In this document: one piece after another, positions 31,603 to 51,412 of the stretch | Numbering within the stretch: the stretch's first letter is position 1 | Layout: each line of letters opens with the position of its first letter | NCBI GenBank assembly: GCA_016203135.1 | Contig: JACQNI010000078.1 | Span: forward strand, 1,157 to 65,156 | DNA: 64,000 bases | DNA from: Candidatus Woesearchaeota archaeon | GTDB taxonomy: Archaea; Nanobdellota; Nanobdellia; SCGC-AAA011-G17; JACPNG01 | Direction of reading: 5' to 3' | The notes under the pieces: model-generated | Databases searched by the model: none | The model's input: the letters and a program-made list of their open reading frames with translations, nothing else | Told to the model about the DNA's origin: nothing | Program-made: the position numbers and the translations under genes

Positions 31603-31691
31603 AGAAAATATAAGAATAAAAAGTTATTTAAGGATTTCTAAAAAGCGCCTAGGCAGAAGATGTATAATCTATTCTTCTGCAATGAATTTTA

Positions 31692-32442: not shown

Positions 32443-32715
32443 GTGATTCATATGCAAGTCGAACTTACTAGGATATCTGAAAAAGGACAGGTTGTTATAC
32501 CATCCTCATTAAGGAAGGAAATGGGAATTAAGAAATCTGATCAATTTATGATATTTGGAGAAGGGGGAACATTAATTTTAAAAAAAATAGAAACTCCTGC
32601 AATGAAGAGAACATTTGATGAAATTGTAAAACCATTACAAAAGGCAGCAAAGAAGGCAGGATTAACAAAAGAAGATTTAAAGATAGCAATTAAAGAAGTT
32701 AGAAATGTCTCCTAA
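32443..32715 (+). CDS. AbrB/SpoVT-type antitoxin (VapB-like)
   Basis: ISEKGQVVIPSSLRKEMGIKKSDQ swapped-hairpin motif. Overlaps the downstream PIN gene. Confidence 0.65.
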   Translation: MIHMQVELTRISEKGQVVIPSSLRKEMGIKKSDQFMIFGEGGTLILKKIETPAMKRTFDEIVKPLQKAAKKAGLTKEDLKIAIKEVRNVS

Positions 32716-33124
32716 ATTAGTTCTTGATACCAATACAATTGTTTCTGCATTCTTTTGGAAAGGAAATGAATCAAGGTTATTTAGGAGGGTTGAACAGGGC
32801 AAGGCAAAGTTATATACTACTATTGAAATTCTTAATGAAATTGAAGATGTAATAAGGAGACCAAAATTTAATGATGTTATGGTTAAAGCAAATTTAACTC
32901 CAGATCAGATCATACAAAAAATTGTTTCACTTTCTCATTTGGTTATTGCTCCAAAATTGAATATAAAAGTTTGCAGGGATGAAAAAGATGATAAATTTCT
33001 TGAATGTGCTGAAAGTGCAAAAGTAGATTATATCATTAGCGGAGATAAAGATTTGCTTGATTTGAAAGAATACAAAGGAATTCTTATTATCAGGACTACT
33101 AGGATATTGGAGTTGTTGAAGTAA
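32705..33124 (+). CDS. PIN-domain toxin (VapC-like)
   Basis: LVLDTNTIVSAFF ... CRDEKDDKFLECA ... IISGDKDLLDL conserved acidic positions. Confidence 0.7.
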   Translation: MSPKLVLDTNTIVSAFFWKGNESRLFRRVEQGKAKLYTTIEILNEIEDVIRRPKFNDVMVKANLTPDQIIQKIVSLSHLVIAPKLNIKVCRDEKDDKFLECAESAKVDYIISGDKDLLDLKEYKGILIIRTTRILELLK

Positions 33125-33137
33125 TGAAAGGATAGTA

Positions 33138-33150
33138 CGCCGAGGCAGGG
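33138..33150 (+). repeat. 13-bp direct repeat CGCCGAGGCAGGG identical to the 3' end of tRNA-Ser(CGA) at 48519-48531; putative distal attachment site
   Basis: Exact 13-mer, GC-rich in an AT-rich context. Left flank GATAGTA equals the 3' flank of the paralogous tRNA-Ser(GCU) gene (51881-51887), consistent with an original chromosomal tRNA flank. Confidence 0.55.
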
Positions 33151-33286
33151 CACTTAGAAATTGTTTAATGCCTTTCTTATTGGTATAGTAGATTAAGGGC
33201 TATATAAAGGTTGCTCCAGCTAGTTATTAAATAGAATAAATACCCAAAACGCAATATTAATAAACAATAATTACATTACTTAAACT

Positions 33287-33511
33287 ATGGCAAAAAACTT
33301 TCATGTAATAATAGAACAAGACGAAGACGGAGTCTATGTAGGCAAGGTATCTGAACTAAAAGGATGCCTAACTCAAGGCGATACTTTGGATGAGCTTATG
33401 AAAAACATCAAAGAAGCCATTGAATTATGCTTAGAAGTACAAGCAGAAGAAAAAACAGAAATTGAAGAGGACCAGATAAAGTTTGTTGGAGTGCAAGAAG
33501 TCGAGGTATAA
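33287..33511 (+). CDS. hicB: HicB antitoxin (second copy)
   Basis: MAKNFHVIIEQDEDGVYVGKVSELKGCLTQGDTLDELMKNIKEAIELCLE, paralogous to the 31920..32132 product. Confidence 0.7.
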   Translation: MAKNFHVIIEQDEDGVYVGKVSELKGCLTQGDTLDELMKNIKEAIELCLEVQAEEKTEIEEDQIKFVGVQEVEV

Positions 33512-33513
33512 CC

Positions 33514-33741
33514 TTGAAGCTTCCCATACTATCTTCTAAAGAAGTATGCAAATTCTTAGAGAAAGAGGGATTCATAGCTATAAGGCAGAAAGGCAGCCAT
33601 AAATTCTATAGACATCAAGATGGGAGAACAACATTAGTGCCTATGCATACAAATAAACCAATAAGCAGGGGACTTCTTAGAGGGATATTAAAAGAGATTA
33701 AGATGGAAAGAAAAGAATTTTTAAGAAAGTATGAATTTTAA
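33514..33741 (+). CDS. hicA: HicA toxin (second copy)
   Basis: SKEVCKFLEKEGFIAIRQKGSHKFYRHQDGRTTLVPMH. Confidence 0.75.
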   Translation: MKLPILSSKEVCKFLEKEGFIAIRQKGSHKFYRHQDGRTTLVPMHTNKPISRGLLRGILKEIKMERKEFLRKYEF

Positions 33742-33747
33742 TAACAT

Positions 33748-35730
33748 TCAAATGCCTTCTATTAACATCTTCTGAGCTTTTTGTATTATCCCTTGTAAAT
33801 TCTTTTCTAACTCTGCCTTGTTTTTATAACCATATTTAATTTTCATCTCCTCTGGAGATAAACTTTCTTTTCCTTCTAAACCATAGTTATCCACGAGTAA
33901 ATTATATTCTGGTTTTGTAAGGTTTTCTTTAAGTCTACTTGATACATATTCAATTAGGTCTCTTTCTATAAGTCTTTCATCGAATCTATCATAGGATGCT
34001 ATAGTGTCTTCTAATAAGGTCTTGTTTCCATCTTTATAAGTATGAACTACTTTCTGTAAAGAAACAAGATTTACGTCTTTATAATGTTGGGATATTTCAT
34101 ATTGCATACATCTATAACAGTAAGCACCAAAATCATCTAAATCAAACCCTGGATTTGTAAAATGCTTAATTGCGCCAAACAAACCAATCCTTGCAAAAGA
34201 GTTCTTGTCTTCAATAGGAGCATCTCTATAATGATTAAAAGTAAGATTTTTTATCTTACTTTCATAATGTTTCAATAAAGTTTCTATTGCTTTCTGATTA
34301 TTTCTTTTAGCTGCAAGCAGAACATGTCTAAAATCTTCATTTCCAGAGATTCCCTGTACAAATGCTCTTTCAACTAAAGATTCATCAATTTCTTCTTTTT
34401 GAAAATCTCTGTTTGCTTTAGCAATTCTTAACGTAATTGGTTTTACAAAAGTAGCTTTTGGATCTATTTCTATGTCATATTCATTTCTAAGAAGGTTTCT
34501 AATAAATAAATCATATTTCATATCCTCCAATCTTTCTCTTAAATGAGTTATGTCTCCTTCAGGAATCAGCCATATTTTTTTATCGACATCAAATCCAAAT
34601 TCTTTAATTAATCCCACGCTTTCTTCCAATTTTTTTAAACTATGTCTATTGAGATCGCTCCATAATTTTTTTGAAACATTATCTTCAGTAATTCCATTAT
34701 TAACTAACAATTCAATTTTTCCATTTCTTCTAACTTCCCATGTTGGAGGGACATTAGGTTGCTCTTTTCTCTCTGTTTTAAAATGTTCATGTACATATTC
34801 TCTAAACTTTGGTACTCCACCATAATGCTTCCATAAGTATAAATTGAGGCTTTCTTTACTAGAACTCTTAAGTTGATCTTTAGTTGGAACTACAAAATAT
34901 CTTTCTTTTCCTCCTTTATCAACAAATTTATAACCAAACCCTTGTAAATGTTCTTTTGTATAATATTTTTCACTTACTTCTGCACATATTTCTATTATAG
35001 CCTCTAAAATATTTTCTTTGCTAGCACCAGAATTGACTCCTAGTTTATGGTAAGGGGAACTGTCATTCACTCTTTTACTTGCTTCTGCAGCTCTCTTTAT
35101 AGTTGATGGACTTTCTAATAATATCCAAGGTCTGTCTGCTGGATGCAACCCGACTTCACGTATGAATCCTAACCTGCTTTCAAGAGTTTTTATTGAAGGT
35201 TTCTTATATTTTTTAAAATGATCTTCAGTTATTTTTCCAACCCCTGGTTTTATTCCATGTGCAAGTAGAAAATTTTCTCTATCCTCTTCATTATCTCTTT
35301 CGACATTATAAAAAGGGTTTGTTCTTCCTGTTTTGTCTGTTTTTGGTAGAATTAGGGATACTAATATTTTATTTCCATGAAATTCTTTAATAGCATTAGC
35401 TAAATCTGTGTAATTTTGAGATACCAGAAAATCTATAGAGAAAGATTTTCCACTTAATTCACCTTTATATGTGTTGTATATCCTAAGTAATTCATGTCTA
35501 GTTCTTTCATAATCTTCATATTGGTTCTCCTGAGAAGGTTGTTCTTGAGTTTGTAAAACCTCTTCAAAAGGGAATTCTGGTTTTTCAGTAGTGCTATAGG
35601 CTAAACCTTCTTTAATTTGCCTAGCTTTTTTAATAGATCTCTCTAGTTCTAGTTCTTGTTTCCCAGGAAATCTCTTCCTTCCAACCCTTCTACTATTGAG
35701 CCTTCTCCTTCTTTTCTTGGTTATTCCCAT
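33748..35730 (-). CDS. large (660 aa) protein with C-terminal sigma-70-family-like region (regions 1.2/2 and 4) and Arg-rich N-terminus
   Basis: AFVQGISGNEDFRHVLLAAKRNNQKAIETLLKHY resembles region 1.2-2.1 (A..GD..A...L...N.RLV..iAk.Y). IEDKNSFARIGLFGAIKHFTNPGFDLDDFGAYCYRCMQYEI resembles region 2.2-2.4 (DLIQEGNIGLMKAVEKFD...F.TYA..WIRQAI). LTKPEYNLLVDNYGLEGKESLSPEEMKIKYG..AELEKNLQGIIQKAQKML resembles the region 4 HTH. The roughly 430-aa N-terminal part is unassigned. Confidence 0.5.
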   Translation of the reverse strand: MGITKKRRRRLNSRRVGRKRFPGKQELELERSIKKARQIKEGLAYSTTEKPEFPFEEVLQTQEQPSQENQYEDYERTRHELLRIYNTYKGELSGKSFSIDFLVSQNYTDLANAIKEFHGNKILVSLILPKTDKTGRTNPFYNVERDNEEDRENFLLAHGIKPGVGKITEDHFKKYKKPSIKTLESRLGFIREVGLHPADRPWILLESPSTIKRAAEASKRVNDSSPYHKLGVNSGASKENILEAIIEICAEVSEKYYTKEHLQGFGYKFVDKGGKERYFVVPTKDQLKSSSKESLNLYLWKHYGGVPKFREYVHEHFKTERKEQPNVPPTWEVRRNGKIELLVNNGITEDNVSKKLWSDLNRHSLKKLEESVGLIKEFGFDVDKKIWLIPEGDITHLRERLEDMKYDLFIRNLLRNEYDIEIDPKATFVKPITLRIAKANRDFQKEEIDESLVERAFVQGISGNEDFRHVLLAAKRNNQKAIETLLKHYESKIKNLTFNHYRDAPIEDKNSFARIGLFGAIKHFTNPGFDLDDFGAYCYRCMQYEISQHYKDVNLVSLQKVVHTYKDGNKTLLEDTIASYDRFDERLIERDLIEYVSSRLKENLTKPEYNLLVDNYGLEGKESLSPEEMKIKYGYKNKAELEKNLQGIIQKAQKMLIEGI

Positions 35731-35870
35731 TTAGGCTTATAAGTTGGCTATATTTATAAAACTTTTGTTATTAGTTTCTTTTTAGTAGTAACTAAATAGG
35801 CTCTGTCCTAAATCTTAATATCTATCAATTTTAAGATAGAGTCATCTATAGGCTTTACTGCAGAACCTAA

Positions 35871-36092
35871 ATGATATTAATATATAAACCATTAAATTTT
35901 ATCAATAATATGGATAGGTACTTACGAGAATATTTCTTAGTCTTTCTTTCTGCAATGGATGGTGCAATAATTGGGGCTTTATTTAATCTAACGGTTAATA
36001 TTAATTTCTCTGGAGCAGCCATTTTTTTATTATTTAGTTTCTTTATTATTATAACTATTTTTGTTGGATTAATTGCTTTTCGTATAATTTAG
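35871..36092 (+). CDS. small membrane protein (73 aa)
   Basis: Two predicted hydrophobic helices. Weak. Confidence 0.25.
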   Translation: MILIYKPLNFINNMDRYLREYFLVFLSAMDGAIIGALFNLTVNINFSGAAIFLLFSFFIIITIFVGLIAFRII

Positions 36093-36157
36093 GAAGAAAA
36101 ATTGAAAAATGAGATTATAATGATCATGGTGAGTCTAATAAATCAGAAGTTTATTAT

Positions 36158-37198
36158 TTAAGATAATGTGGTTGTTTTAATGTAGTCTATTAGTTTTTTC
36201 CCTCTATTATATAATTCAGTATAAGTAATAATTTCTACATTGCTCAGATGGCTTGAGAAGATTCTTCTGTCTTGAATTTTATCTGTTTTTTGTTTACCTA
36301 TAACAATAAGAGATTTTGGTTTAAAGATATTTTTAATATTTTTAGTATCACATATGTGTAGATAAGTAAAAACTTGACCGATTGCTTCTGAAAACTTTTG
36401 ATTTGGTTTGCTTCTTTTTTCAGTTCTTCGGTCAAATAGATTCTCATTTGGGCCTTTTAACTCTACTAAATCATAAAAGTTATCATATCTTTGTAACATT
36501 ATATCAAATTGATAATCTTTTTTGCCAGGTGGGAACCAAACTTTATGCTCAATTCCAATATATTCTAAACCAAAAATCCAAAAGATATCTTTATTAGCAA
36601 TAAAATAATTGTGAACATCGGTCTCTGTTGATTTAGAACTATCGATAAGAGTCTTGAATTTTTTAAGCTTATTCTCGTAGTCTTTGACATTAGACTTCAT
36701 TATGTTAAATCGTCTTTTGAAAATATTTAACTGGACAATATTTGATGATTCTAGGTCTTTAATTTTTTTGAATTTTGCATTGAGCTCACTAATCTCATCT
36801 TTTTTCCTTAAAAAGTTTTTATATTTTTCTTTTGGAAGAACAACAAAATTTGGGTTGCTAAGCCCATCTCCAATAATTGCGTTTACTATTTCAGAAGTGA
36901 GGGACCATTCTTCCATTGATCTTATATTGTAACTTCTAAAAATTCTCCAGTATTTAATTTTCTTATTTTTCTTATCATTAATTGCTCTCCATTTTGTTAC
37001 TCTAATAACTCTTTTATCTGTCAATTTGCCAGAAGTTCTATCTCTTTCGTAGCATTCATCTACACTATAAAGCCAGACACTATTACTTGATAAAAGAACT
37101 GGATATCTGTTAATTAATTCATAGAACTCACTTTCAATAAATGTCCTCTCATTGCAAGTTAAAATTTTATCCATAACATTCTGGATGGGGTGTAGCAT
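36158..37198 (-). CDS. Shedu-like (DUF4263) PD-(D/E)xK nuclease, candidate defence gene
   Basis: C-terminal YQFDIMLQRYDNFYDLVELKGPNENLF...KFSEAIGQVFTYLH...PKSLIVIGK matches the DUF4263 pattern (D..D..ELK / ..A.sQ...Y / iIVIGr). Variable N-terminal domain. Confidence 0.5.
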   Translation of the reverse strand: MLHPIQNVMDKILTCNERTFIESEFYELINRYPVLLSSNSVWLYSVDECYERDRTSGKLTDKRVIRVTKWRAINDKKNKKIKYWRIFRSYNIRSMEEWSLTSEIVNAIIGDGLSNPNFVVLPKEKYKNFLRKKDEISELNAKFKKIKDLESSNIVQLNIFKRRFNIMKSNVKDYENKLKKFKTLIDSSKSTETDVHNYFIANKDIFWIFGLEYIGIEHKVWFPPGKKDYQFDIMLQRYDNFYDLVELKGPNENLFDRRTEKRSKPNQKFSEAIGQVFTYLHICDTKNIKNIFKPKSLIVIGKQKTDKIQDRRIFSSHLSNVEIITYTELYNRGKKLIDYIKTTTLS

Positions 37199-37356
37199 TT
37201 AAATTTATTGAAAAATAACCTAATTTCCCTGAAATTGATTTGCTCTAAAAATTTTGTAACCGTTAAATTGCCGTTAGGCGTCCAGAACGAAATATGAACT
37301 TATAAGGCGAACTGGGGAGTGAAACGACAAATAGTATGACGCAGATGGCTACCTTA

Positions 37357-38097
37357 TTAATTGTATGTGAACTTCCTTATTTCAATTAACAAAAAAAGAA
37401 TGCCTGCCCAAGCTAATAATAAAAGAAGATTTTTAGCAAGTACTATCCAAAAATTTGGTCTAACATATATTTCTGCAGTGATTTCGTTCCATCCTTTCAC
37501 TTGTAGTTCTGGGCAATCTTTTATCGGATTAGATTTTAAATACTCAACAACCATATCATCAGGAGGATATCTAATTTTATTGTTAATTCTTAAGTTGATT
37601 CCTTTTTTTGTATTGTGAAGTTCACATTTCTCTTTTCTAGGATACACATAAATATCTCTTTCACTTTTTCCATTCATACTAGTTTCATAAATAGTAAAAA
37701 TGGTTGGAGATTCAAGGGTTGTTGGAATTTTACAAATATATAATTTAGCATCAAAATTATGGTAGCAAACATCATGCCAACCTAATCCTATTACATTAAA
37801 TAAATTATTAAAAATAGTTCTGATCACTGATGGATTTTTTAGTTCATCAGTTTGAATTGAAAAAATATTATTTTCTAAAGTGATAATATCTGAATTTTTA
37901 AAATAGTCATAACTATAATTAAAACTATCTATTTGTGAGGCGCTTTCTTTATAATTTATTGTTGTATTAGCATAAATTAAACGCTGCTTTTCAAAAGGTG
38001 TAATGATAAATAGGAATGAAATCAAAATTGGAAGTATTAGTATCAATAAATTTATCCACTTAATTCTTTTTTTATCTTTATTTTTCATAATAGACAA
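37357..38097 (-). CDS. membrane protein with N- and C-terminal TM helices (246 aa)
   Basis: Hydrophobic segments near both ends. Confidence 0.4.
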   Translation of the reverse strand: MSIMKNKDKKRIKWINLLILILPILISFLFIITPFEKQRLIYANTTINYKESASQIDSFNYSYDYFKNSDIITLENNIFSIQTDELKNPSVIRTIFNNLFNVIGLGWHDVCYHNFDAKLYICKIPTTLESPTIFTIYETSMNGKSERDIYVYPRKEKCELHNTKKGINLRINNKIRYPPDDMVVEYLKSNPIKDCPELQVKGWNEITAEIYVRPNFWIVLAKNLLLLLAWAGILFLLIEIRKFTYN

Positions 38098-38198
38098 ATA
38101 ATCTGATTAAATATAAGTTTTTGCATATTTCGGGTGGTCGTTGAGTAATATTTCACATAATAGGTTATTTTTAATTATTTTATTTAATTCTACAAATT

Positions 38199-41100
38199 TT
38201 ATTCTTTTTTTTTAAATAATCTTTTAATTCTAAACCTTAATTTTCTTACTATTCTTGTGCGAGTTAAAAATGTTAGTGTCAAAATTAACACAACCCAAGA
38301 GATTATAGTAGACCATACCCCATTATTTCCAGAAAGAACACCTATTGCAGCCCCAGTTGGAGGTCCTGGATTAGTAAAGAATGCTTTAATTCCATTCCAT
38401 ACTTTAGCAAAGAATCCTTGGGTAGTTTGTTCTTGAGCTTCTAAAACTGGTTCTTCTTTAGGTTCTTCTTGTAATGTTTCAGGAACCGCTTCTTGTGGTT
38501 CTTCTCCATCAGGTATAGGAAAATCAAATGTTGGAGTTGGTTGAGGTGTAGGCGTTACACTTCTAGAGCTACTACTTCCCCCACCACCGCCTCCCCCTCC
38601 TCCCCCAGAAGATCCGCCTGGAGATCCAGTATCTACTCCAGTACTACAACTTTGGGATTCTTGGGGTTTATTATTTGTAGTTCCACATAAATTAGAGTCA
38701 GTACAGGTTCTAGTTTGGGTTCCACTAGTACAAGAGCTCCATTCAGAACATGTCCATGACTCATCGCAAGATTCTTGTTCTTTAATTCCTGAATGTTTTA
38801 AACCGCTTATTTTATACGAGTTATTTACAATCTCACAACTGTAAGTAAAGTTTGAACCTGGGCATAAAACTAATAATTCATCTTCTTTAATACAAGAATT
38901 ACTAATCTCTGTTAGATTAGTAATTTCTTGATCTTTAAGGCATAGTTTACTTGTATTTGATATAATGTCTACGTATACCGTCTTATTACTTCCATTCAGA
39001 TCTAAACCACGAATAAGAAGAGAACCAAAACTACTGTTATTTTCTTGTTTTTTAATAGTTAAATTCTTTATGTTGATTGTAATATTTGGTAATTCTATTC
39101 TTGTTTTATTATTTTCTTTTAAAATTAATTTATCCTTTATTTTTCCTAGATTTATATTATCTAAATTATTTTTAATTTCAGTTATATTTCCAATAAAGCC
39201 ATCATTATCAAAATCACAGGAATAAGTGTTGTTTTGAGGTCTACCTAATAAATCTGAATTCAAACCAGTCTTATTATAACAAGAATTATTGTCAATGAAA
39301 TAATTTTTAAATATTTCATCTTTTTGACATGGTGTAAATGATTCTATCCATTTTGGAGTGCAAAAATCGCATATTAAAGGTTCAAATTCAGAAAAATTTC
39401 CTAGATATAAGTCAGATTCTAAACCAGTTTTATTATAACAACTAAAGGTATCATTGACTAAATTACATGATTGTGTATCATTTGCTGAACATTTATTATA
39501 CCCCCCACAAGTAAAATTCGGTTTACAAAAATCACATTTCCCAATGATGTTCAATGGTTTGTTTTTATTATCATTACAACTATTAATATCAAAATAATTT
39601 TTAAATTGTTGATCATTAGAACTACATTCTGACCAGGTGTTATTTAAGACCCAATTTGGAGTGCATAAATTAATTTCATAAAGACTAGTTTCTGCGGCTT
39701 TTATTTCTACTTTTCTGTTAGTGTCTTGACCATTTACAAATAACGAATAATTTCCTTCTGGAATAGTTAAGCCATAATCTTCCTTATTATCATCATAATT
39801 AAAGTGATAAAATATTTTTGATGTTGGGTTTTGTGTAAATTGATACTCTATTGAACTATTAACAATTTTGACTTGACCATTAAAGGTTTCATTTACTTTA
39901 ATCAAAGCAGTCCCTTCTCCAAAAGGATTATTCGCATTATTTGAATTAATATATACTTCATCATGGTTAAGATAACTACCAAAATTATTTTGATTAGTCA
40001 TAAATTGGTCTATCAAACCAATCACGTTATCTAAGTTAGTTGTTGTGTTTAGATAATCTTCAATTAGAGGTCTTAGAACTGAAGACCAAGCCTGTCCCGT
40101 ATAATGGTCTAAAATCATATCCCAAAAACCATGTTCCCATAATTCTATTTGTGTATATATTGTTTTGTGATTTCTATTTATAACTATTAATGGAAGATTG
40201 TTATTTATCCTTGATGCACTAGAGACTGAAACTAAATCATCTGAGTCATCAGCTTCAAAAGGTAAACATGGGATATCTTGATTTTTACCAGCAATAATCA
40301 AAGTATCAACATTTGATGTGGTGTTTTTTATATTCAACTTCCAAATAAAATCACTACCTATCGCAAGGTCTGTATATGCTGGCGCATCTTGATTCCAACT
40401 AATAAAAGGTTTTCCAAACAATAACCATCCGCCGACCTCATTTATTACTTGACACGCTAAATTCATGCCTTCATCATATATTATTCTATTTGCTAAATAT
40501 GAACCATAATTCGGTGGGGCAAGCATTAGCAACTTACTCACATCATCATGATAAGATATGTTTTTACCGTTTGGGTCGGTAGCAATTCCTTCGATGTAAG
40601 ACCTTGTTACTAATCCCCCCATACTATGAGATACAATTTTAACTTTTGAAGAAGTGTAAAAAGAATTAACATAAGAAATTCCATCAGACAACAAAGTACC
40701 AGAATAATCTATCTTTTGGTCATTTGGATAATAAAATTTCCAAACATCATAACCTTTTGCGATTAATTTATCTTCAAAGTGTCCATCAAAATATCCACTT
40801 TCTCCATTTAATCCATGAACTAAAATTAATGGTTCATTATTAACATTCAAATTCTTTCTTGGTGCTTCTAAGAATGAAACCTGATAAAAACTAGAACTTA
40901 TGCTTGCAACAGAAAAAGCGTTGGTATTGATAGAATTTGTAGTTTCTAACAATTCATTAAGTTCTTTTTCTTCTTTAAACTTTTCAAATGGTTTTATCTC
41001 TAGTGAAGAGTTTATTTTATAATATTGGTAATTGAAAGATTCTTTTATGAGGTTTGAACTTGGAACTAAATAAAAACTTTCTTCACTACCTCTTTTCCAC

Positions 41101-42482: not shown

Positions 42483-42843
42483 TACCCCTAAAGTTTATTA
42501 TATCAATCCCCAAAAAATGAAGTGGCCATAAAATTAAAGTAATTAAGAAATCAGAAGGTTTTTTAAGATACAAATAAAAATACCAAGATATTCGTGTAGG
42601 CTCATCTATATGGAACTTATCAAATCCATCTACACACCATTGAGCTAGAGGAACAGGATTATCACGATTAGATTCTATACATCGGTTTTCCCAGTAGGAG
42701 TTTCCATTATCTTCTAAACTATCCTCTTCAACTAAGAAGTGATTGTAGTAAGCATTCGCCCTAAATATAGTAAAAAGAAGTCCGATAAAGAGATATAATA
42801 AAAGTGTTAAAACTAGTTTCTTTTTCATTTCATTTTCACTCAT
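42466..42843 (-). CDS. membrane protein (125 aa)
   Basis: N-terminal TM helix. Immediately upstream of the giant protein gene. Confidence 0.35.
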   Translation of the reverse strand: MSENEMKKKLVLTLLLYLFIGLLFTIFRANAYYNHFLVEEDSLEDNGNSYWENRCIESNRDNPVPLAQWCVDGFDKFHIDEPTRISWYFYLYLKKPSDFLITLILWPLHFLGIDIINFRGIGYGL

Positions 42844-42927
42844 TATTACCAGATAAATGCTTTTAGGTTAATATTGCAGTAAGCTAAGATATTTATTAAT
42901 CTTATTATTTTTAAGAATAAAAAAAGC

Positions 42928-43185
42928 CTATTTCTGTAATAATTTGTTTAATATCTTTCTTCCTTGCTTAGTGATACTTACTATAAAATATGGCCTACCA
43001 GTAGCCTTATGGTTTTCTTTTTTAGTTATATTGATAGCCCAAAATTTTTCAAGCTCTGTACAATTAGTTTTTATAGTCCTAAATCCAGTATTGATTTTTC
43101 TTTCTAGTTGAGCAAAGGTTAGGTCCTTTTTGTTTAATTCTTTTAGAATAAGCATCTTGATATCTTTGCTTTGCCTTTTAGTCAT
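42928..43185 (-). CDS. winged-helix transcriptional regulator
   Basis: 85-aa basic protein with HTH-like LTFAQLERKINTGFRTIKTNCTELEK. Confidence 0.45.
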   Translation of the reverse strand: MTKRQSKDIKMLILKELNKKDLTFAQLERKINTGFRTIKTNCTELEKFWAINITKKENHKATGRPYFIVSITKQGRKILNKLLQK

Positions 43186-43236
43186 ACTACAATAAGGCAG
43201 TAAGCTTTATATAGTGCTAACTCATAATATTGCAGT

Positions 43237-44151
43237 ATGAAGGGATGGGTAGACTTGCTAAAAAGCCTAAAATGGTATGAAAAGTTAGTTTATTTTCTTG
43301 GTTTATTATTGGTTATCTTATTAACTCAATATTTCATAAGTGGTTATATACATTCAAGTGTTAACTATGAAGATTTTGATATTAGTGCTACTTGGGAAAA
43401 CAAAATTGATGATACCTTTTATTTTGATTATAGTGAGGGAGTATTTCATTCTTGGTTTGAATTAAAAGTTACTTCTCTTAGAGATGATTTATACTACAGG
43501 GTTTATGATAAATCTATAAATATTGAGCTAACAGAGTATGGTGGTGTCAGAAATTTAGCTAGACTTAATCAGGGTGCTGTTTATGTTGATATTTTTAATG
43601 CTGATGCTAAATTAAAAACAATTGACCAATTAAAAGAAATTGAAGTCTGTGTTTCGTCTAAACAAGATTTTACAAAAAGTACAGAAGGAATAGTATGTAA
43701 ATCTACTTTCTTACAACCAAGAAATATAAATATTGAAGTAAATTCAGATCCATTAACCTTTATTAGCTCTAAATCCTCTTTTGAACAACAATATAAGTGG
43801 CTAACTGTTAAAAATATAGGAGATACAACAATAAATGTTTGTGTGTTCCTTCCATCATATGCATCATATGCTAATGAAAAATTAGATTACCCAAGATATA
43901 AACCACAATACGGAACTCGGTGGGGATTTGGACCTGAAGGAGAAGGAACTCAAAATTGTGAAATATTGGAACCAAGTGAGAGCTCTAAGTACGAAGTAGC
44001 TGTTTTTGTAGGAAATGTGGGTGAGTTTGATACACCATTAGGCACACATACATCTCAAGGAATTGTGGGTGCTGTATTTGGTGAATATCTTGGGTTAGGT
44101 TATGCACATTATAAAAAGTCGTTTACTTTAGAAACAACTGTTATTCAATAA
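43237..44151 (+). CDS. membrane-anchored hypothetical protein (304 aa)
   Basis: N-terminal TM helix, rest beta-rich. Confidence 0.4.
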   Translation: MKGWVDLLKSLKWYEKLVYFLGLLLVILLTQYFISGYIHSSVNYEDFDISATWENKIDDTFYFDYSEGVFHSWFELKVTSLRDDLYYRVYDKSINIELTEYGGVRNLARLNQGAVYVDIFNADAKLKTIDQLKEIEVCVSSKQDFTKSTEGIVCKSTFLQPRNINIEVNSDPLTFISSKSSFEQQYKWLTVKNIGDTTINVCVFLPSYASYANEKLDYPRYKPQYGTRWGFGPEGEGTQNCEILEPSESSKYEVAVFVGNVGEFDTPLGTHTSQGIVGAVFGEYLGLGYAHYKKSFTLETTVIQ

Positions 44152-44210
44152 AAAAATTCATTGTAATTAATAAATTCAAAAATAAAATCTTTCCTCTTTT
44201 TAACAATATA

Positions 44211-44576
44211 TTAATTTGTGATTCTGGGAATGGACATTGTTCTTTTGAACCTCTTTAATTTATCATAATCAATTTCTTCTGCTTTATTTACTTGAAATAC
44301 CTCGGCTTCAGGATATCGCTTCTTAAATTCTGTTAAATCAGACCTATTAGACTCTTGTTGAGGTTTTGAGGAGCCACATTCACATTCCACTGCTATTGGT
44401 TTAAGGTAAGGCCTATCTTTATGTGGAAATCCTACAGTATCAATAAAATGTACATTTCCTTCTCTAAAAATTGGGAATTCCTTAAAACATTGGTGCGTTG
44501 ATTTCAATCTATTATGAACGCCTTGCACGCATTTTTTATGCTCTTTTTGTTGCCCCATTTTCACTAATCCATTCAT
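44211..44576 (-). CDS. hypothetical protein (121 aa)
   Basis: ORF only. Confidence 0.3.
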   Translation of the reverse strand: MNGLVKMGQQKEHKKCVQGVHNRLKSTHQCFKEFPIFREGNVHFIDTVGFPHKDRPYLKPIAVECECGSSKPQQESNRSDLTEFKKRYPEAEVFQVNKAEEIDYDKLKRFKRTMSIPRITN

Positions 44577-44799
44577 TTAAATTGTTAAATTCTTTAAAAC
44601 ATGGTGATTTCTTATTTTTGTCTTTTTTATGAATTACGTAGTAACACTTCTCCTTTTGTGCACCATCTTCAAAACGTAGACGTTCGAGAATTATCCATTT
44701 CTTATCTTTTATTGTGTTAATTTTTCCTTTTCTATTTTTAGTTAAATAATAAGATATTAAAACTACTGTCAAAGATAATATAGCTAAAATAAAATACAT
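44536..44799 (-). CDS. hypothetical membrane protein (87 aa)
   Basis: N-terminal TM helix. Confidence 0.3.
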   Translation of the reverse strand: MYFILAILSLTVVLISYYLTKNRKGKINTIKDKKWIILERLRFEDGAQKEKCYYVIHKKDKNKKSPCFKEFNNLNEWISENGATKRA

Positions 44800-44800
44800 A

Positions 44801-45208
44801 TTACGCCTCTCCTAGGTATCTGTCTGTATTAATTATTTCCCTCTTTACTTCAACAATTTTATCCATATACTTAGGTTTACTGGACTTAATAAGTGGACCT
44901 TCTTCACTATTAAACCCATACCATAGATTATAATATTTTTTAGCTCCTTCAGAAAATTTATAATAGTAAACCCCTTTTTTATACCTTCGAGTAAACCATC
45001 CTTGTCTATACATGCGCCAGAGTTTTAAGCGTGTTGCATTACCACTTATAATGTTATTAAATAATTCGCAAAGATTATTGGAAGTAAACTCACTATTCAA
45101 ATCATAATTTCTCCTAATGAACTGAAGGAATTCTGGAGTCCACTTTATTACTGCCTTGATTGTTAATCCAGAATATCTATCTGTATAATGCTTTATTGCA
45201 TAATCCAT
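44801..45208 (-). CDS. hypothetical protein (135 aa)
   Basis: ORF only. Confidence 0.3.
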   Translation of the reverse strand: MDYAIKHYTDRYSGLTIKAVIKWTPEFLQFIRRNYDLNSEFTSNNLCELFNNIISGNATRLKLWRMYRQGWFTRRYKKGVYYYKFSEGAKKYYNLWYGFNSEEGPLIKSSKPKYMDKIVEVKREIINTDRYLGEA

Positions 45209-45232
45209 TTTATTTAAATAAATAATAATGGA

Positions 45233-46057
45233 TTATAAATTGCGCCTATTTATTTTGGAAACATCAAGCTTTTTTAAGATTTCTTGTAGAAGTTTAGAAT
45301 TCATTGATTGATATTTAAGTATCAGTTCTTCATTATGTTTATGTTTGATCGTTTCATCGTATAATTCCAGGAATCTATCTTCATTTATTAACATATTGAA
45401 GATAGCTTCTAATTTGATCGGGAGCTTTAGTTTATGCTCGGATCTTAGTGACTTAGCTGATTTATTGTGATAGAGTTTAAACTGTTCTGATAGTGAATCT
45501 ATGCTTATACTATTTAAGCCGTCTAATTTAATACCTTCCATATCATTATTAATTTCTATGCTAGTTAAATAAACCCTAGAGGGTACTGGTTCTTCATTGC
45601 AAAAATTATGAATCAATTCACAAAATAGTAAATAGCAGGTATAAATCGAAGTTATATTCAAAGGATATTGTGTAGAAACCCTTAAACTGGCTTTTTTACT
45701 AGTACTACCAATTTCAAATTTTAGGTTAAGTAATGAATTTCCCAAATTTTTTGTTATTCTTTGACCGTTATATTTTGGTAATTTATAAGAAAGGATTGCA
45801 TTGTGAAAATTCCATTTAAAAATAGCACCATGCCTATCATTATCAACTAAGACATAAAGTCCAGCGTACCCCTTATGTTTTACTCCATCCATATCAGGAA
45901 GCATTGACTTTATTGTATTATGGTTGATCCCAGTATAATAACTTATGGCTTTGGGGGTGAGCCCTTCGGGATGATTTTTAAGGGCTTGCATAATTTTATT
46001 AATTTTTTCTTGTTTATTCCTGTTGTTAGTTGTAACTTTGGGTTGCTTATGACTCAT
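45233..46057 (-). CDS. hypothetical protein with N-terminal HTH-like region (274 aa)
   Basis: GLTPKAISYYTGINHNTIKSML HTH-like. Confidence 0.35.
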   Translation of the reverse strand: MSHKQPKVTTNNRNKQEKINKIMQALKNHPEGLTPKAISYYTGINHNTIKSMLPDMDGVKHKGYAGLYVLVDNDRHGAIFKWNFHNAILSYKLPKYNGQRITKNLGNSLLNLKFEIGSTSKKASLRVSTQYPLNITSIYTCYLLFCELIHNFCNEEPVPSRVYLTSIEINNDMEGIKLDGLNSISIDSLSEQFKLYHNKSAKSLRSEHKLKLPIKLEAIFNMLINEDRFLELYDETIKHKHNEELILKYQSMNSKLLQEILKKLDVSKINRRNL

Positions 46058-46385
46058 TTTTAATCCGATAATTTATCTTTATTCCATGCCCATAATGGAT
46101 ATTTATAAAACCTAAATCCTTTAAAAAGAGCAAAACATCCCACACTTGCTTTTTTTGTATTGAAAAAGAGGACGCAAGCTTTGAAATTGCATCAGGAAAG
46201 CTTATTATCCCAGCTTTTGAGGTTTTACATTCTGCTAATCTTTCCAAACATATTAAGTATAGGCCTTTTCTTGGCATTCTTAATCTTAGGAGATAATTAG
46301 GATGAACATTTGCTAAATCCTGTTTTTCAATTTTAGATTTATTTTTAATATTATTAATTTTTTCGATCCATAATTGGTTTGTCAT
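46047..46385 (-). CDS. hypothetical protein (112 aa)
   Basis: ORF only. Confidence 0.3.
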   Translation of the reverse strand: MTNQLWIEKINNIKNKSKIEKQDLANVHPNYLLRLRMPRKGLYLICLERLAECKTSKAGIISFPDAISKLASSFSIQKKQVWDVLLFLKDLGFINIHYGHGIKINYRIKNES

Positions 46386-46444
46386 TTAAATGACAAACCT
46401 TATATACTTATATAGCCTTTTTATTAAAAAAACGATAAGTCGAT

Positions 46445-47293
46445 ATGATGAAAGAATCTATTAAAATAAAAAGAGATAGAAAATTAAATAGGTTTGTTAT
46501 AAAATCCCTAATTAAAAGACCTTTGTCAGCTGATCAGATTCTTGATAAAATTAAACTATCTAAAAAGTTTAAAATTAACACCCTACCTGGATTAGAAAAA
46601 TATCATTTAGCATATCTAGAAAAGAAAAATGTTATACTTAGATTAGATAGAAAAGCTAAAAATTTTATAAATAATTTATCTGTTGAAGACTTTATGGAAA
46701 AAACTTGGTTTAGGTGGGAGAGAAGTATTAAGAAAAATAAATGGGGAAGTAAAAGTAATAATCCTTATCATTCATATTATTTTGCTACTCCTATAACAGC
46801 TAAATGGACAAATATTTTTAATAAAATTATTAGAGAGAGAATTTTAGTTAAACTCAGCGAATTTATTACTGATAGGGATGAGATTGAGTTATGTTTGAAT
46901 GAAATTATTAATACTATGAAAAAAATTGAAACCCTTTCTAGGAAAAAAATAAAAATTTATAAAAGATTACAACAAGAAACCGATGATTTTTTAGGAGTCA
47001 AGGGAATTAATTATTTAGAAAGCAAAATTAAAAAAATCAAAAAATTTCAAAAAAAAGACGGTATGTTTTTACCTTTTGGATTTGCTGATTATATATTATC
47101 TGATTTTGATAGTTTTATGAGACCTATGGATGATATTAAATTTGTTCTCTTTAGCAGACTACTTAATAAATTAGGTACCCTTCACTATTTATTAAATCAA
47201 AGAATTAAAATAATAAGTATTTTAGATTATGAATTTAAAAAAGAAAATTTTGTTGAACCCAATGAATATCTTAAGAATTTAACTTCTTCTTAA
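46445..47293 (+). CDS. hypothetical protein (282 aa)
   Basis: ORF only. Confidence 0.35.
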   Translation: MMKESIKIKRDRKLNRFVIKSLIKRPLSADQILDKIKLSKKFKINTLPGLEKYHLAYLEKKNVILRLDRKAKNFINNLSVEDFMEKTWFRWERSIKKNKWGSKSNNPYHSYYFATPITAKWTNIFNKIIRERILVKLSEFITDRDEIELCLNEIINTMKKIETLSRKKIKIYKRLQQETDDFLGVKGINYLESKIKKIKKFQKKDGMFLPFGFADYILSDFDSFMRPMDDIKFVLFSRLLNKLGTLHYLLNQRIKIISILDYEFKKENFVEPNEYLKNLTSS

Positions 47294-48488
47294 TCAATTC
47301 TAAAATTTCTGGATCTTTAACAAGTTTATCCATAATTTCATCTGCCTGTTGTCTTTCAAAATCTTCCTTTAATATATTATCAGCTTCTTCTTTATCCAAT
47401 ACTAAACCACATAGTTTACAAAATTTATTACTATTTTCATTATTAGTCTTACATCTGATGCAATTTTGTGGTTTTAAAATAATCTTTGTTTTTTTATTCT
47501 CAACTTCCATTCCATTAATTTTTAAAATAGCTTGATCTGTATCTCTGCCAGACATATGGATATAAATACCAGCCATCCTAGAGCCTTGAGTCCAACCAAG
47601 ATATTGTTTCATTACAGCTTCTCCAACACTGTTTGAAGCCATCCAAGTTGCTCTTGAATGCCTTAATAAATGAGGATAGACTCTTTTCTTAATTCCTGCT
47701 TTTTGAGCTGCTCTTTTAAGAATGTGATTGATTTGAGCATAACATAATAATTCTCCACCATTGAAATTATACCATAAGAAAGCCTCTGGATTATCATTGT
47801 CTGGATGTTGGTTTATCCATTCTTGTAGATAAGGAGTACTACTTATAATGAGAATTTTTCTTGAACCAGTTTTTCCATGAATATTTATCCTTGCCCCATA
47901 TTCTTCAAAGGATATATGTTTAATCTTCATTGTGCCTATTTCTGAACATCTAGCTCCAGATTCAGCTAGAACAGATAATAGGGTTTTATCTCTAAGACAA
48001 TCAGCTGATCTAACTATTTTTTCTATTTCTTCCTCAGTCAAAAGCTCTTCTGGCAGTTTTTTATGATTATCTTTTAAGCCAATCTTAATCCATTTGACTT
48101 CTGCGGGTAATTCATCTGAATCTTCTAAGCCCCTTACAATCTTATATAGCCTCTTTACCATAACTTTAAATGTAGTTTTGCTTTGTTCTGTCATCGCTGT
48201 TTGATTTAGACTAGCCATTACTCTTACTATATCTTCTTTTGTAGCATCTTTTATATGCTTTCCTAACATATTAACGAACTTCATAGCGTAGAATACATAG
48301 GAATCTATCTTGCCATAACTAATTCCTCTACATAGGCAATAATCTTTAAATTTATGTATCCATTCTTTATCTTCATCAGAAATATCAGATTCCTTTAATC
48401 TTTCTAATATCCTATCAAATCTCCTTTTGTAATTATGTAAATCCATTTTTACCTTAAATAAGTCGTGATTTTCTAGATAATAAACCAC
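47271..48488 (-). CDS. int: tyrosine recombinase / integrase (XerC/D-like) with C-terminal zinc ribbon
   Basis: Catalytic-region motifs HLLRHSRATW and GIYIHM. N-terminal SAM-like domain. C-terminal CIRCKT...CKLCG. 30 nt from tRNA-Ser. Confidence 0.85.
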   Translation of the reverse strand: MVYYLENHDLFKVKMDLHNYKRRFDRILERLKESDISDEDKEWIHKFKDYCLCRGISYGKIDSYVFYAMKFVNMLGKHIKDATKEDIVRVMASLNQTAMTEQSKTTFKVMVKRLYKIVRGLEDSDELPAEVKWIKIGLKDNHKKLPEELLTEEEIEKIVRSADCLRDKTLLSVLAESGARCSEIGTMKIKHISFEEYGARINIHGKTGSRKILIISSTPYLQEWINQHPDNDNPEAFLWYNFNGGELLCYAQINHILKRAAQKAGIKKRVYPHLLRHSRATWMASNSVGEAVMKQYLGWTQGSRMAGIYIHMSGRDTDQAILKINGMEVENKKTKIILKPQNCIRCKTNNENSNKFCKLCGLVLDKEEADNILKEDFERQQADEIMDKLVKDPEILELIKKKLNS

Positions 48489-48518
48489 GACTAAAGAAGG
48501 CGTTAAACAAAATCAAAG

Positions 48519-48614
48519 CGCCGAGGCAGGGATTTGAACCCTGATATCCTTGCGGAAACCGGTTTTCGAGATTCGCCTTTTATCCAGCGCACTACCGGAT
48601 TATGCGACCTCGGC
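48519..48614 (-). tRNA. tRNA-Ser (probable anticodon CGA), long variable arm, 12-nt intron at non-canonical position 30/31
   Basis: Sense sequence GCCGAGG-TC-GCAT..GTGC-G-CTGG[ATAAAAGGCGAA]T-CTCGAAA-ACCGG-TTTCCGCAAGGATAT-CAGGG-TTCAAAT-CCCTG-CCTCGGC-G. Collinear with the intron-less tRNA-Ser(GCU) at 51888..51971 apart from the 12-nt insert. Confidence 0.65.
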
Positions 48615-51354: not shown

Positions 51355-51412
51355 AAAATTTTTAAAGATGCCGGAACTGAAGGTAGCCCTTCTGTCTTCA
51401 TGCCGAGAGTTT

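What the first reader, a model, noticed from the sequence alone, without database searches (positions are those of the whole stretch)
33138..48531. About 15.4-kb integrated element at tRNA-Ser(CGA), delimited by a 13-bp direct repeat of the tRNA 3' end
CGCCGAGGCAGGG occurs exactly twice. One copy is the discriminator plus 3' acceptor and T-stem of tRNA-Ser (48519-48531). The other is at 33138-33150.

A tyrosine integrase gene lies 30 nt from the tRNA and is transcribed away from it, which is the classic attL/int arrangement. The distal copy is followed leftwards by GATAGTA, the same 3' flank as the paralogous tRNA-Ser(GCU). This fits a displaced original tRNA 3' end.

Cargo:
- a HicAB toxin-antitoxin pair;
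- a sigma-70-like protein;
- a Shedu-like nuclease;
- a 1427-aa secreted protein with a lipase domain;
- wHTH regulators;
- about 10 genes of unknown function.

No capsid or terminase genes were recognised, so it may be an integrative plasmid or defence island rather than a provirus.

A degenerate third copy (AAAGCGCCTAGGCAGA, 31642-31657) would bracket the adjacent HicAB-VapBC block (31662-33137). That hints at an older decayed tandem integration.
Basis: seen in the sequence. Interest (0 to 1): 0.7.

Follow-up and report, generated by a model that had tools for sequence, protein, structure and literature searches.

The report
Integrated mobile element at archaeal tRNA-Ser
A 15.4-kb piece of mobile DNA carrying its own integrase, defence genes and a giant surface protein sits at the end of a serine tRNA gene in a tiny groundwater archaeon (Woesearchaeota), next to a small toxin-antitoxin cassette bounded by the same repeat; this is an ordinary kind of element in a poorly studied host.

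Summary
CGCCGAGGCAGGG occurs exactly twice in the window (0.02 expected). One copy is the 3' end of an intron-bearing tRNA-Ser(CGA) at 48519-48614(-). An intact tyrosine integrase lies beside it.

Related metagenome contigs support both boundaries:
- A 94%-identical contig joins the host left flank directly to the element's left end through a perfect core. It skips precisely the HicAB-VapBC block between the degenerate copy (31646) and the 33138 copy.
- Two 91%-identical contigs lose homology exactly at the tRNA 3' end.

Homologous integrases (over 1000, in Woese-/Pace-/Nanoarchaeota) sit after tRNA-Ser genes with unrelated cargo.

The element has no capsid, terminase, P-loop ATPase or known Rep. 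I read it as a cryptic integrated element in tandem with a 1.5-kb integrase-less TA cassette.

Cargo confirmed: Shedu, HicAB, a lipase-domain giant protein. The sigma-70-like call has only weak, convergent support.

One core gene (274 aa) is shared with a family of about 11-kb circular head-tailed viruses. It is a candidate replication initiator.

No empty site or excised circle was found. This is a new member of a known kind, of moderate interest.

The parts
31646..31658 (+). S1: degenerate core copy CGCCTAGGCAGAA (10/13), outer boundary of the tandem array. The host flank AAAAAG lies to its left.
   Evidence: L017 joins this flank to the E2 left end through a perfect core.
31659..33137 (.). 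E1: 1.48-kb integrase-less cassette. It holds HicA 31692-31919(-), HicB 31920-32132(-), VapB/MazE-type antitoxin 32443-32715(+) and VapC PIN 32705-33124(+).
   Evidence: Pfam: HicA 3.8e-20, HicB 5.5e-6, MazE_antitoxin 9.7e-8, PIN_3 8.1e-19. The block is precisely absent in L017.
33138..33150 (+). S2: exact 13-bp core copy, the distal attachment site of E2 and the junction between E1 and E2.
33287..33741 (+). E2 HicB antitoxin (33287-33511) and HicA toxin (33514-33741).
   Evidence: Pfam HicB_lk_antitox 2.6e-10 and HicA_toxin 2.6e-19. They are 46-53% identical to the E1 pair.
33748..35730 (-). 660-aa protein with a basic N-terminus. Its C-terminal part (about residues 450-656) is weakly sigma-70-like.
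   Evidence: Pfam HTH_16 1.5e-4. PHROG 351 sigma factor 0.0074. NCBIfam SigK 4e-6, 26 bits against a cut-off of 252. All of the 50 best Foldseek PDB hits listed are sigma factors, at E 0.017-0.81, but the model has pLDDT 55. Only one homologue is known.
36158..37198 (-). Shedu defence nuclease SduA (DUF4263 C-terminal domain).
   Evidence: Pfam SduA_C 5.7e-16. PADLOC SduA 9.9e-16.
37357..38097 (-). 246-aa membrane protein with transmembrane segments at both ends. Unknown function.
   Evidence: No family hit.
38199..42482 (-). 1427-aa surface protein with an N-terminal hydrophobic (signal-like) segment, a class-2 lipase / alpha-beta hydrolase domain, Cys-rich repeats, a Gly/Ser and Pro/Thr linker, and a C-terminal membrane anchor.
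   Evidence: Pfam Lipase_2 1.9e-8, residues 549-738. Hydrophobic segments at residues 7 and 1388. Sequence.
42466..42843 (-). 125-aa protein with two transmembrane segments, overlapping the start of the giant protein gene.
42928..43185 (-). 85-aa putative winged-helix protein.
   Evidence: Pfam HTH_34 0.0029, below cut-off.
43237..44151 (+). 304-aa protein with an N-terminal transmembrane segment. Unknown function.
44211..45208 (-). Three small genes of unknown function (121, 87 and 135 aa), in one operon-like run with the 274- and 112-aa genes.
45233..46057 (-). 274-aa protein ('fam274'): an N-terminal wHTH plus a C-terminal domain with invariant E168, Y196, R205 and E207. Candidate replication initiator or regulator. 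Shared with about 11-kb circular head-tailed viruses.
46047..46385 (-). 112-aa protein. Apart from the integrase, it is the only E2 gene shared with integrase-linked islands in other DPANN genomes.
   Evidence: 49% identical in L022/L023 and 31% in L020, close to their integrases.
46445..47293 (+). 282-aa protein of unknown function. It is transcribed divergently from the 112-aa operon and converges on the integrase gene.
   Evidence: no family.
47271..48446 (-). Tyrosine integrase, 391 aa, with R166, K192, H259-x-x-R262, W285, Y295 and a C-terminal CxxC...CxxC zinc ribbon. The gene is intact in the integrated state.
   Evidence: Pfam 8.6e-26. Invariant columns in 28 homologues. NCBIfam XerA 131.6 bits against a cut-off of 220. 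Over 1000 homologues.
48519..48614 (-). tRNA-Ser(CGA) with a 12-nt insertion in the anticodon stem. Its last 13 nt (48519-48531) are S3, the proximal attachment site.
   Evidence: Rfam tRNA 40.9 bits. Homology of related strains stops at 48519/48517. The tRNA-integrase junction is seen in 5 independent assemblies.

Best explanation
The region 31646-48531 is a tandem array of two site-specifically integrated elements in the 3' end of tRNA-Ser(CGA) of a Woesearchaeota (DPANN) archaeon.

**E2 (33138-48531, 15.4 kb).** It encodes a tyrosine integrase.
- Inferred: a circular form of E2 carried an attP containing a copy of the last 13 nt of the tRNA, probably 17 bp with the trailer AAAG.
- Inferred: the integrase recombined attP with the tRNA gene. 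This rebuilt the tRNA 3' end from element DNA and left the displaced copy at the far end.
- Shown: the integrase gene is not split by integration. This is the pNOB8-like, non-partitioning mode.

**E1 (31659-33137, 1.5 kb).** It carries only HicAB and VapBC and has no integrase. It is bounded by the same core, one copy degenerate. I take it as a decayed element or a cassette moved in trans by an E2-type integrase.

**What E2 lacks.** It has no capsid, packaging, conjugation or recognisable replication genes. It is best classed as a cryptic integrated element.

**What E2 carries.**
- Addiction and defence genes: HicAB and Shedu.
- A giant lipase-domain surface protein.
- A sigma-like DNA-binding protein.
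- A wHTH protein with invariant Tyr and acidic residues, shared with small head-tailed viruses. This may be its replication initiator.
For: **Shown.**
- An exact 13-bp direct repeat, one copy being the tRNA 3' end, with 0.02 expected by chance.
- An intact integrase with the full catalytic set, located 72 nt downstream of the tRNA.
- The structure is reproduced at 99.99-100% identity in independent Logan assemblies, each junction in five samples (six runs in all).
- L017 (94% identical) joins the host flank 31544-31645 to 33138-33671 through a perfect core. Both S1 and S2 are therefore real recombination breakpoints.
- L025 and L026 (91% identical host relatives) lose homology at 48519 and 48517, the tRNA 3' end.
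- Integrase homologues of 62-63% identity lie directly after tRNA-Ser(TGA) at the same chromosomal position in two other genomes, with entirely different cargo and with extra copies of the tRNA 3' end.
- No viral, conjugative or replication family hit in Pfam, PHROGs, NCBIfam or PADLOC. No Walker A or HUH motif in any E2 protein.

**From the literature.** Archaeal att sites as short as 8 bp, tRNA targets, arrays formed by re-use of one site, and the class 'cryptic integrated elements' are all described (PMC6563490).
Against: - No true empty site (host flank joined to the tRNA) and no attP junction was found in GTDB genomes, JGI metagenomes or IMG/VR.
- All five assemblies carrying this exact integrase show the integrated form, so current mobility is unproven.
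- G+C content does not differ from the flanks.
- The integrase family is unusually conserved (mean column identity 68%), and its nearest NCBIfam model is chromosomal XerA.
- E1 could instead be native DNA deleted in the L017 lineage through a pseudo-site.
- Absence of recognisable virion genes does not exclude a novel archaeal virus.
Confidence: 0.78

Rival explanations
1. E2 is the provirus of an unrecognised membrane-enveloped (pleolipovirus-like or spindle-type) archaeal virus. The small two-TM protein and the giant anchored protein would be the virion membrane protein and spike.
For: - Among catalogued viruses, the closest integrases are those of 13-16-kb pleolipovirus-type proviruses of Archaeoglobi (34% identity over 94-98% of the protein, E about 1e-55).
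- Those viruses place a small VP3-like membrane protein directly before a VP4-like anchored spike. E2 has a 125-aa two-TM gene overlapping the start of the gene for a giant protein with an N-terminal hydrophobic (signal-like) segment and a C-terminal anchor.
- The sizes are similar.
Against: - No E2 protein other than the integrase matches those viruses, even at E = 0.05-1.
- E2 has no P-loop NTPase and no Rep.
- The giant protein is about 3 times longer than VP4-like spikes and carries a lipase domain.
- The integrase family was essentially absent from IMG/VR in a pattern-based scan.
Confidence: 0.12
2. E2 is a fixed, no longer mobile genomic island. It entered by integration long ago, and its repeats and integrase are retained without ongoing excision.
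For: - Only the integrated form is seen in five samples.
- No attP junction in any collection.
- Composition is indistinguishable from the host.
- An E2-like left end is also present in a 94%-identical strain from another site (L017).
Against: - The integrase is intact with every catalytic residue, and both 13-bp cores are perfect.
- The tRNA-proximal junction differs in 91%-identical relatives.
- The S1/S2 rearrangement shows that recombination at these cores occurred after the strains diverged.
Confidence: 0.2
3. E2 is a satellite or plasmid-like replicon that exploits the roughly 11-kb head-tailed viruses with which it shares the 274-aa gene.
For: The 274-aa family is a core gene of 12 IMG/VR contigs that encode TerL, an HK97-type capsid protein and a portal. 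Four of these are circular at 11-11.8 kb. E2 itself has no structural genes.
Against: - E2 (15.4 kb) is larger than the putative helper genomes.
- Only one gene is shared.
- No packaging signal or capsid-remodelling gene is recognisable.
- The viruses mostly have about 41% G+C, against 30% for E2.
Confidence: 0.05
4. The repeat is a chance match. The recombinase is a chromosomal XerA-type housekeeping enzyme and the region is ordinary host DNA.
For: The best NCBIfam match is archaeal XerA. The family is very conserved and widespread. There is no compositional anomaly.
Against: - The XerA score of 131.6 bits is far below the cut-off of 220.
- Two paralogues (P0065 and P0089) both list a 681,493-bp longest contig, probably the same contig.
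- Homologues sit beside tRNA-Ser genes with unrelated cargo.
- The repeat has 0.02 expected matches.
- Strain breakpoints coincide with the repeat copies.
Confidence: 0.03

Closest known systems
Cryptic integrated elements (CIE) of archaea, as defined for Thaumarchaeota (Krupovic et al. 2019, PMC6563490)
   Same: - Multigene element integrated by a tyrosine recombinase into a tRNA gene.
- Short direct repeats: 13 bp here, against 8-26 bp (median 17) in that study.
- Size near the CIE median of 17 kb.
- No viral or conjugative hallmark genes, with the integrase as the only broadly conserved gene.
- Cargo of defence and toxin-antitoxin genes.
- Arrays formed by re-use of the same site.
   Different: - The host is a DPANN archaeon.
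- The integrase belongs to a distinct, highly conserved clade of about 390 aa with a C-terminal zinc ribbon.
- No MCM, primase or other known replication protein is present.
pNOB8-type (non-partitioning) archaeal integrases, as opposed to SSV1-type
   Same: The integrase gene stays intact in the integrated state, and attP lies outside it. The distinction itself is from my own knowledge of She et al. 2004. PMC6563490 mentions the split SSV1-like case.
   Different: I did not test sequence relatedness to the pNOB8 integrase. The nearest profile is XerA-like and the nearest viral relatives are integrases of Archaeoglobi pleolipoviruses.
CIME-ICE accretion in bacteria (cis-mobilisable elements next to ICESt3-type elements in Streptococcus). 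From my own knowledge, not checked here.
   Same: E1 is a short att-flanked segment without an integrase, lying in tandem with an integrase-bearing element at the same tRNA site. A related strain lacks exactly that segment.
   Different: This is an archaeal host with no conjugation module. Mobilisation in trans is inferred only.
Pleolipoviridae proviruses of Archaeoglobi (GacPV1 BK065156, ThalV2 BK065158)
   Same: The integrase is 34% identical over nearly its full length, including the C-terminal part. The sizes are 13-16 kb. A small membrane protein gene precedes a large anchored protein gene.
   Different: No VP3-like, VP4-like, NTPase or Rep homologue is found in E2.
Shedu (SduA) and HicAB / VapBC modules
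   Same: Family-level hits are above the curated thresholds for all modules except the E1 HicB, which scores at its cut-off.
   Different: Here they are found as cargo of a DPANN integrative element. Their function was not tested.

Membership tests
tRNA-targeting integrative element (tyrosine-recombinase iMGE) | Encodes a tyrosine recombinase with the catalytic R-K-H-x-x-R-H/W-Y set | tested here: met
   Pfam Phage_integrase 8.6e-26. R166, K192, H259, R262, W285 and Y295 are invariant in 28 homologues.
tRNA-targeting integrative element (tyrosine-recombinase iMGE) | Flanked by direct repeats, one of which is part of the target tRNA gene | tested here: met
   Exact 13-mer at 33138 and at the tRNA 3' end 48519, with 0.02 expected. 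tRNA found by Rfam.
tRNA-targeting integrative element (tyrosine-recombinase iMGE) | Variable presence: related genomes have an empty site | tested here: inconclusive
   No empty site was found. However, relatives diverge exactly at the tRNA end, and the S1-S2 block is absent in L017.
tRNA-targeting integrative element (tyrosine-recombinase iMGE) | An excised circular form with attP exists | tested here: inconclusive
   The junction pattern found nothing relevant in IMG/VR or JGI contigs. Five assemblies show only the integrated form. Reads could not be searched.
Cryptic integrated element (CIE) | No viral hallmark genes (capsid, terminase, portal) and no conjugation genes (VirB4/HerA-type ATPase) | tested here: met
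   No such hit in Pfam, PHROGs or NCBIfam. No Walker A motif in any E2 protein.
SSV1-type integrase element | The integrase gene is split into two parts by integration (attP inside int) | tested here: not met
   The integrase ORF is complete (391 aa) and collinear with homologues.
Pleolipoviridae provirus | VP3-like and VP4-like structural proteins plus a conserved NTPase or Rep | tested here: not met
   Only the integrase matches GacPV1 and ThalV2. No P-loop motif. Remote structural similarity of the giant protein was not testable, because it exceeds the 1200-aa limit.
Head-tailed provirus (Caudoviricetes, including the 11-kb family L038-L049) | Large terminase, portal and HK97-fold capsid protein | tested here: not met
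   These are present in L041 and its relatives. In the window only the 274-aa gene matches.
Archaeal XerA chromosome-resolution recombinase | Scores above the NCBIfam equivalog cut-off for XerA | tested here: not met
   NF040815 scores 131.6 bits against a cut-off of 220. The protein also has an extra zinc ribbon. P0065 and P0089 both list a 681,493-bp longest contig, probably the same contig.
Shedu defence system | SduA protein with the DUF4263 nuclease domain | tested here: met
   Pfam SduA_C 59.5 bits against a cut-off of 27. PADLOC SduA 9.9e-16.
HicAB toxin-antitoxin | Adjacent HicA toxin and HicB antitoxin genes | tested here: met
   Both pairs match. HicA (both pairs) and the E2 HicB are above their Pfam cut-offs. 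The E1 HicB scores exactly at its cut-off (27.0 bits).
Sigma-70 family sigma factor (660-aa protein) | Matches a sigma-70 region 2 / region 4 model above threshold | tested here: inconclusive
   NCBIfam SigK 26 bits against a cut-off of 252. Pfam HTH_16 22.2 bits against a cut-off of 22. The 50 best fold hits listed are all sigma factors, but at E >= 0.017 and from a model with pLDDT 55.
Cis-mobilisable element (E1) | att-flanked, no recombinase of its own, moved by a neighbour's integrase | not testable with these tools
   The structure fits, and the block is precisely absent in L017. Mobilisation in trans needs an experiment.

The most novel reading that the evidence does not exclude
The 274-aa protein has a wHTH followed by a beta-rich domain with invariant Glu, Tyr, Arg and Glu. 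It may found a previously undescribed family of replication initiators, shared between capsid-less integrative elements of Woesearchaeota and a family of miniature (about 11 kb) circular head-tailed viruses. E2 would then be a self-replicating integrative plasmid that exchanges its replication module with viruses. In addition, the att-flanked toxin-antitoxin mini-cassettes at two tRNA-Ser genes would be integrase-less passengers moved in trans.
Probability: 0.25. Interest if true: 0.6.

Novelty: new member of a known kind. Interest (0 to 1): 0.4.

Why it matters
DPANN archaea are tiny, host-dependent cells whose mobile elements are known mostly from virus surveys. A well-delimited integrative element gives several concrete handles:
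- An abundant, conserved integrase clade (over 1000 homologues) that targets tRNA-Ser genes.
- A 13-17-bp attachment site that could serve for mining other islands, or as a genetic tool.
- Evidence that defence genes (Shedu, toxin-antitoxins) and a giant lipase-domain surface protein are horizontally mobile cargo. Such a surface protein could plausibly act in cell-cell contact.

The gene shared with 11-kb head-tailed viruses links plasmid-like and viral replicons in this lineage. None of this changes concepts: tRNA-integrating elements and tandem arrays are textbook.

Tried and rejected
- **ARAGORN** did not call the tRNA. Rfam did.
- **Empty-site and attP searches:**
  - The tRNA 3' 31-mer in GTDB genomes gave only an unrelated Nanoarchaeota tRNA-Ser(GGA) without an integrase.
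  - A degenerate pattern covering attB, attP, attL and attR gave one unrelated archaeal tRNA in JGI metagenomes.
  - The same pattern gave nothing in IMG/VR.
- **Synteny.** The nearest relative with a long contig (wHTH protein 75% identical) has no tRNA next to the wHTH gene. Synteny is lost, so it says nothing.
- **Logan contig ends.**
  - Ends at the tRNA 5' end and inside vapC (32922-32951) looked like hints of polymorphism.
  - I could not link them to any repeat or alternative junction.
  - The extra bases on two contigs are Nextera adapter.
- **Integrase family in IMG/VR.** Only one 24%-identical hit.
- **660-aa protein.** There is a single homologue, in a sugar-metabolism context that is not an element. 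The structure model was poor.
- **274-aa protein.**
  - BFVD gave no hit at E <= 0.001, only faint TBP-fold hits. A Rep_trans / Rep-Arvir-like fold (PMC13107129) therefore remains a guess.
  - No DUF7845 hit.
- **E1 versus the tRNA-Ser(GCU) cassette.** No significant similarity between their ends beyond GATAGTA.
- **Bacterial promoter/terminator scan.** Uninformative for an archaeon.

Full report
**Host and setting.** The window is about 30% G+C throughout. It encodes archaeal housekeeping genes: prefoldin, CysRS, PolX, RNA cyclase and an HVO_0163-type regulator. It has intron-bearing tRNAs. The integrase is identical to an nr protein from 'Candidatus Woesearchaeota archaeon'. Independent Logan assemblies of runs SRR12113383, 384, 420, 422, 424, 430 and 431 reproduce the region at 99.99-100% identity. 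One is a 19.3-kb contig running from vapC (32922) across the whole element into the right flank. The structure is therefore not an assembly artefact of one data set.

**The observation.**
- CGCCGAGGCAGGG occurs at 33138 and 48519 only, with 0.02 matches expected.
- The 48519 copy is the T-stem 3' half, acceptor 3' strand and discriminator of a tRNA at 48519-48614(-). ARAGORN missed it. Rfam scores it 40.9 bits.
- Reading the sequence, a 12-nt insertion interrupts the anticodon stem, and the loop CUCGAAA gives anticodon CGA.
- The variable arm and T arm closely match the tRNA-Ser(GCU) at 51887-51972 (Rfam 51888-51971).
- In 91%-identical relatives only the insertion changes length, as expected of an intron.
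- With three mismatches the only further copy is CGCCTAGGCAGAA at 31646.

**The integrase.**
- The ORF 47271-48488 has a Phage_integrase domain (8.6e-26).
- Homologues and the database protein start at MDLHNYK, so the gene is 47271-48446 (391 aa), 72 nt from the tRNA.
- In an alignment of 28 homologues, R166, K192, H259, R262, W285 and Y295 are invariant. So are four cysteines of a C-terminal zinc ribbon.
- The best NCBIfam model is archaeal XerA, but at 131.6 bits against a cut-off of 220.
- More than 1000 proteins of about 390 aa from Woese-, Pace- and Nanoarchaeota are 52-65% identical. P0065 and P0089 both list a 681,493-bp longest contig, which is probably the same contig.

**Comparative evidence for the boundaries.**
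1. L017 is a 651-bp ENA contig from a Rifle-type sample.
   - It aligns to 31544-31656 and then directly to 33138-33671 at about 94% identity.
   - Its junction reads AAAAAG|CGCCGAGGCAGGG|CACTTAG.
   - The HicAB-VapBC block between S1 and S2 is thus precisely absent, and the left end of E2 abuts the host flank. Both S1 and S2 are real recombination breakpoints.
   - AAAG also precedes the tRNA-side copy, so the core shared by E2 and the native site is probably 17 bp.
2. L025 and L026 are 91%-identical host relatives. They align through the wHTH gene and the whole tRNA and stop at 48519 and 48517. A different sequence follows.
3. In two other genomes (L020, L022), integrases 62-63% identical to this one lie directly after tRNA-Ser(TGA), downstream of the rpl1-rpl10-rpl12 operon.
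   - The downstream genes are entirely different.
   - L020 has a second, near-identical copy of the tRNA 3' end about 70 nt downstream, and L022 a more degenerate one.
   - Apart from the integrase, only the 112-aa protein (46047-46385) is shared with these islands.

**What could not be shown.**
- The GTDB, JGI and IMG/VR scans found neither an empty site nor an attP junction.
- All five assemblies carrying the exact integrase show it joined to the tRNA.
- The nearest relative with a long contig has lost synteny at this point.

**Content of E2.**
- Confirmed: HicB/HicA (33287-33741), Shedu SduA (36158-37198; Pfam and PADLOC), and a 1427-aa protein. That protein has an N-terminal hydrophobic (signal-like) segment, a Lipase_2 domain and a C-terminal anchor.
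- The 660-aa protein gives only sub-threshold sigma-factor hits in three libraries.
  - A low-confidence model (pLDDT 55) nevertheless draws sigma-70-family factors as all of its 50 best PDB matches listed, at E 0.017-0.81.
  - It has a single homologue, in an unrelated context.
  - I call this sigma-like domain plausible, not established.
  - A paper on DPANN viruses reports two viral genes annotated as rpoS (PMC12647753).
- No E2 protein has a Walker A or HUH motif.
- None hits a capsid, terminase, portal, conjugation or replication family.

**Links to viruses.**
- Among catalogued viruses, the closest integrases are those of pleolipovirus-type proviruses of Archaeoglobi (34% identity, nearly full length). 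Nothing else is shared with them.
- The 274-aa protein (45233-46057) has 120 representative homologue clusters.
  - It has an N-terminal wHTH, found in family members and in the model.
  - E168, Y196, R205 and E207 are invariant.
- A back-translated motif search found this gene in 12 IMG/VR contigs.
  - Four of them are circular at 11.0-11.8 kb.
  - All belong to one family. Each contig encodes some or all of a large terminase, an HK97-type capsid protein, a portal and a nuclease, and all four are present in the four circular genomes.
  - The 274-aa gene is universal among them.
  - In L041, the one genome whose ORFs I read in full, I saw no other candidate replication gene.
- Its C-terminal domain found no significant structural match, only faint TBP-fold hits.
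- A role as replication initiator is an inference from the conserved Tyr and acidic residues, the wHTH, and this distribution.

**Interpretation.**
- E2 is a tRNA-integrating, integrase-bearing element without virion or conjugation genes. It matches the class called cryptic integrated elements (PMC6563490). In that class short att sites, tRNA targets, a size of about 17 kb and arrays at one site are all documented.
- Integration does not split the integrase gene, so it follows the non-partitioning mode.
- E1 is an att-flanked toxin-antitoxin cassette without an integrase, comparable in layout to bacterial cis-mobilisable elements.
- The data do not settle whether E1 predates E2, inserted into E2's distal site, or was deleted in the L017 lineage.

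**Assessment.** It is a new member of a known kind. It has added interest because the host is a DPANN archaeon, the integrase clade is large and targets tRNA-Ser, and one core gene ties it to miniature head-tailed viruses.

Noticed in passing
window 51369-51972: The tRNA-Ser(GCU) gene shows the same layout as E1 in miniature. GATAGTA abuts its 3' end, as at S2. A 10/13 copy of its own 3' end (TGCCGGAACTGAA, also ending in GAA like S1) lies about 520 bp downstream. The two copies bracket a DUF4258/DUF2283 toxin-antitoxin pair. GATAGTA occurs only 6 times on the + strand of the window, and two of those abut tRNA-Ser-end sequences. This may be a second att-flanked TA mini-cassette.
   Followed up: partly
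L038-L049 (IMG/VR contigs; L041, L045, L047, L049 circular): A family of very small (about 11-12 kb) circular genomes encodes a large terminase, an HK97-type capsid protein, a portal and a staphylococcal-type nuclease. All carry a homologue of the element's 274-aa protein. In L041, the one genome read in full, I saw no other candidate replication gene. G+C is 32-42%.
   Followed up: partly
window 33748-35730 (-): A 660-aa protein in an archaeal element has a C-terminal third resembling bacterial sigma-70-family factors. The support is three sub-threshold profile hits, plus sigma factors as all of the 50 best fold matches listed from a poor model. It has only one homologue in 5.8 billion proteins.
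   Followed up: partly
window 24046-24894 (-) and 24051-24125 (+): A 282-aa LAGLIDADG homing-endonuclease-like ORF overlaps tRNA-Pro(UGG) at its 3' end, on the opposite strand.
   Followed up: no
window 19705-19817 (-): A second tRNA found only by Rfam (113 nt, so it presumably contains an intron). ARAGORN missed both intron-bearing tRNAs in this window.
   Followed up: no
window 32922-32951 (inside vapC): Logan contigs from five different samples all begin at 32922-32932, and one contig ends at 32951. No repeat in the window explains this recurrent assembly break. It may reflect strain variation in vapBC.
   Followed up: partly
window 48461-48492: A 7-bp inverted repeat (AGTCGTG ... CACGACT, 18-nt loop) lies between the tRNA end and the integrase start codon. 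It could be a regulator or integrase binding site, or a stop signal for the tRNA transcript.
   Followed up: no
L020 9856-9950; L022 9705-9800: In L020, a second near-identical copy of the tRNA-Ser(TGA) 3' end plus trailer (GGCGGGGGCGTTTTGAAAAAG) lies about 70 nt downstream of the tRNA, before the integrase gene. A looser, by-eye match sits at the same place in L022. These look like scars of earlier recombination events.
   Followed up: partly
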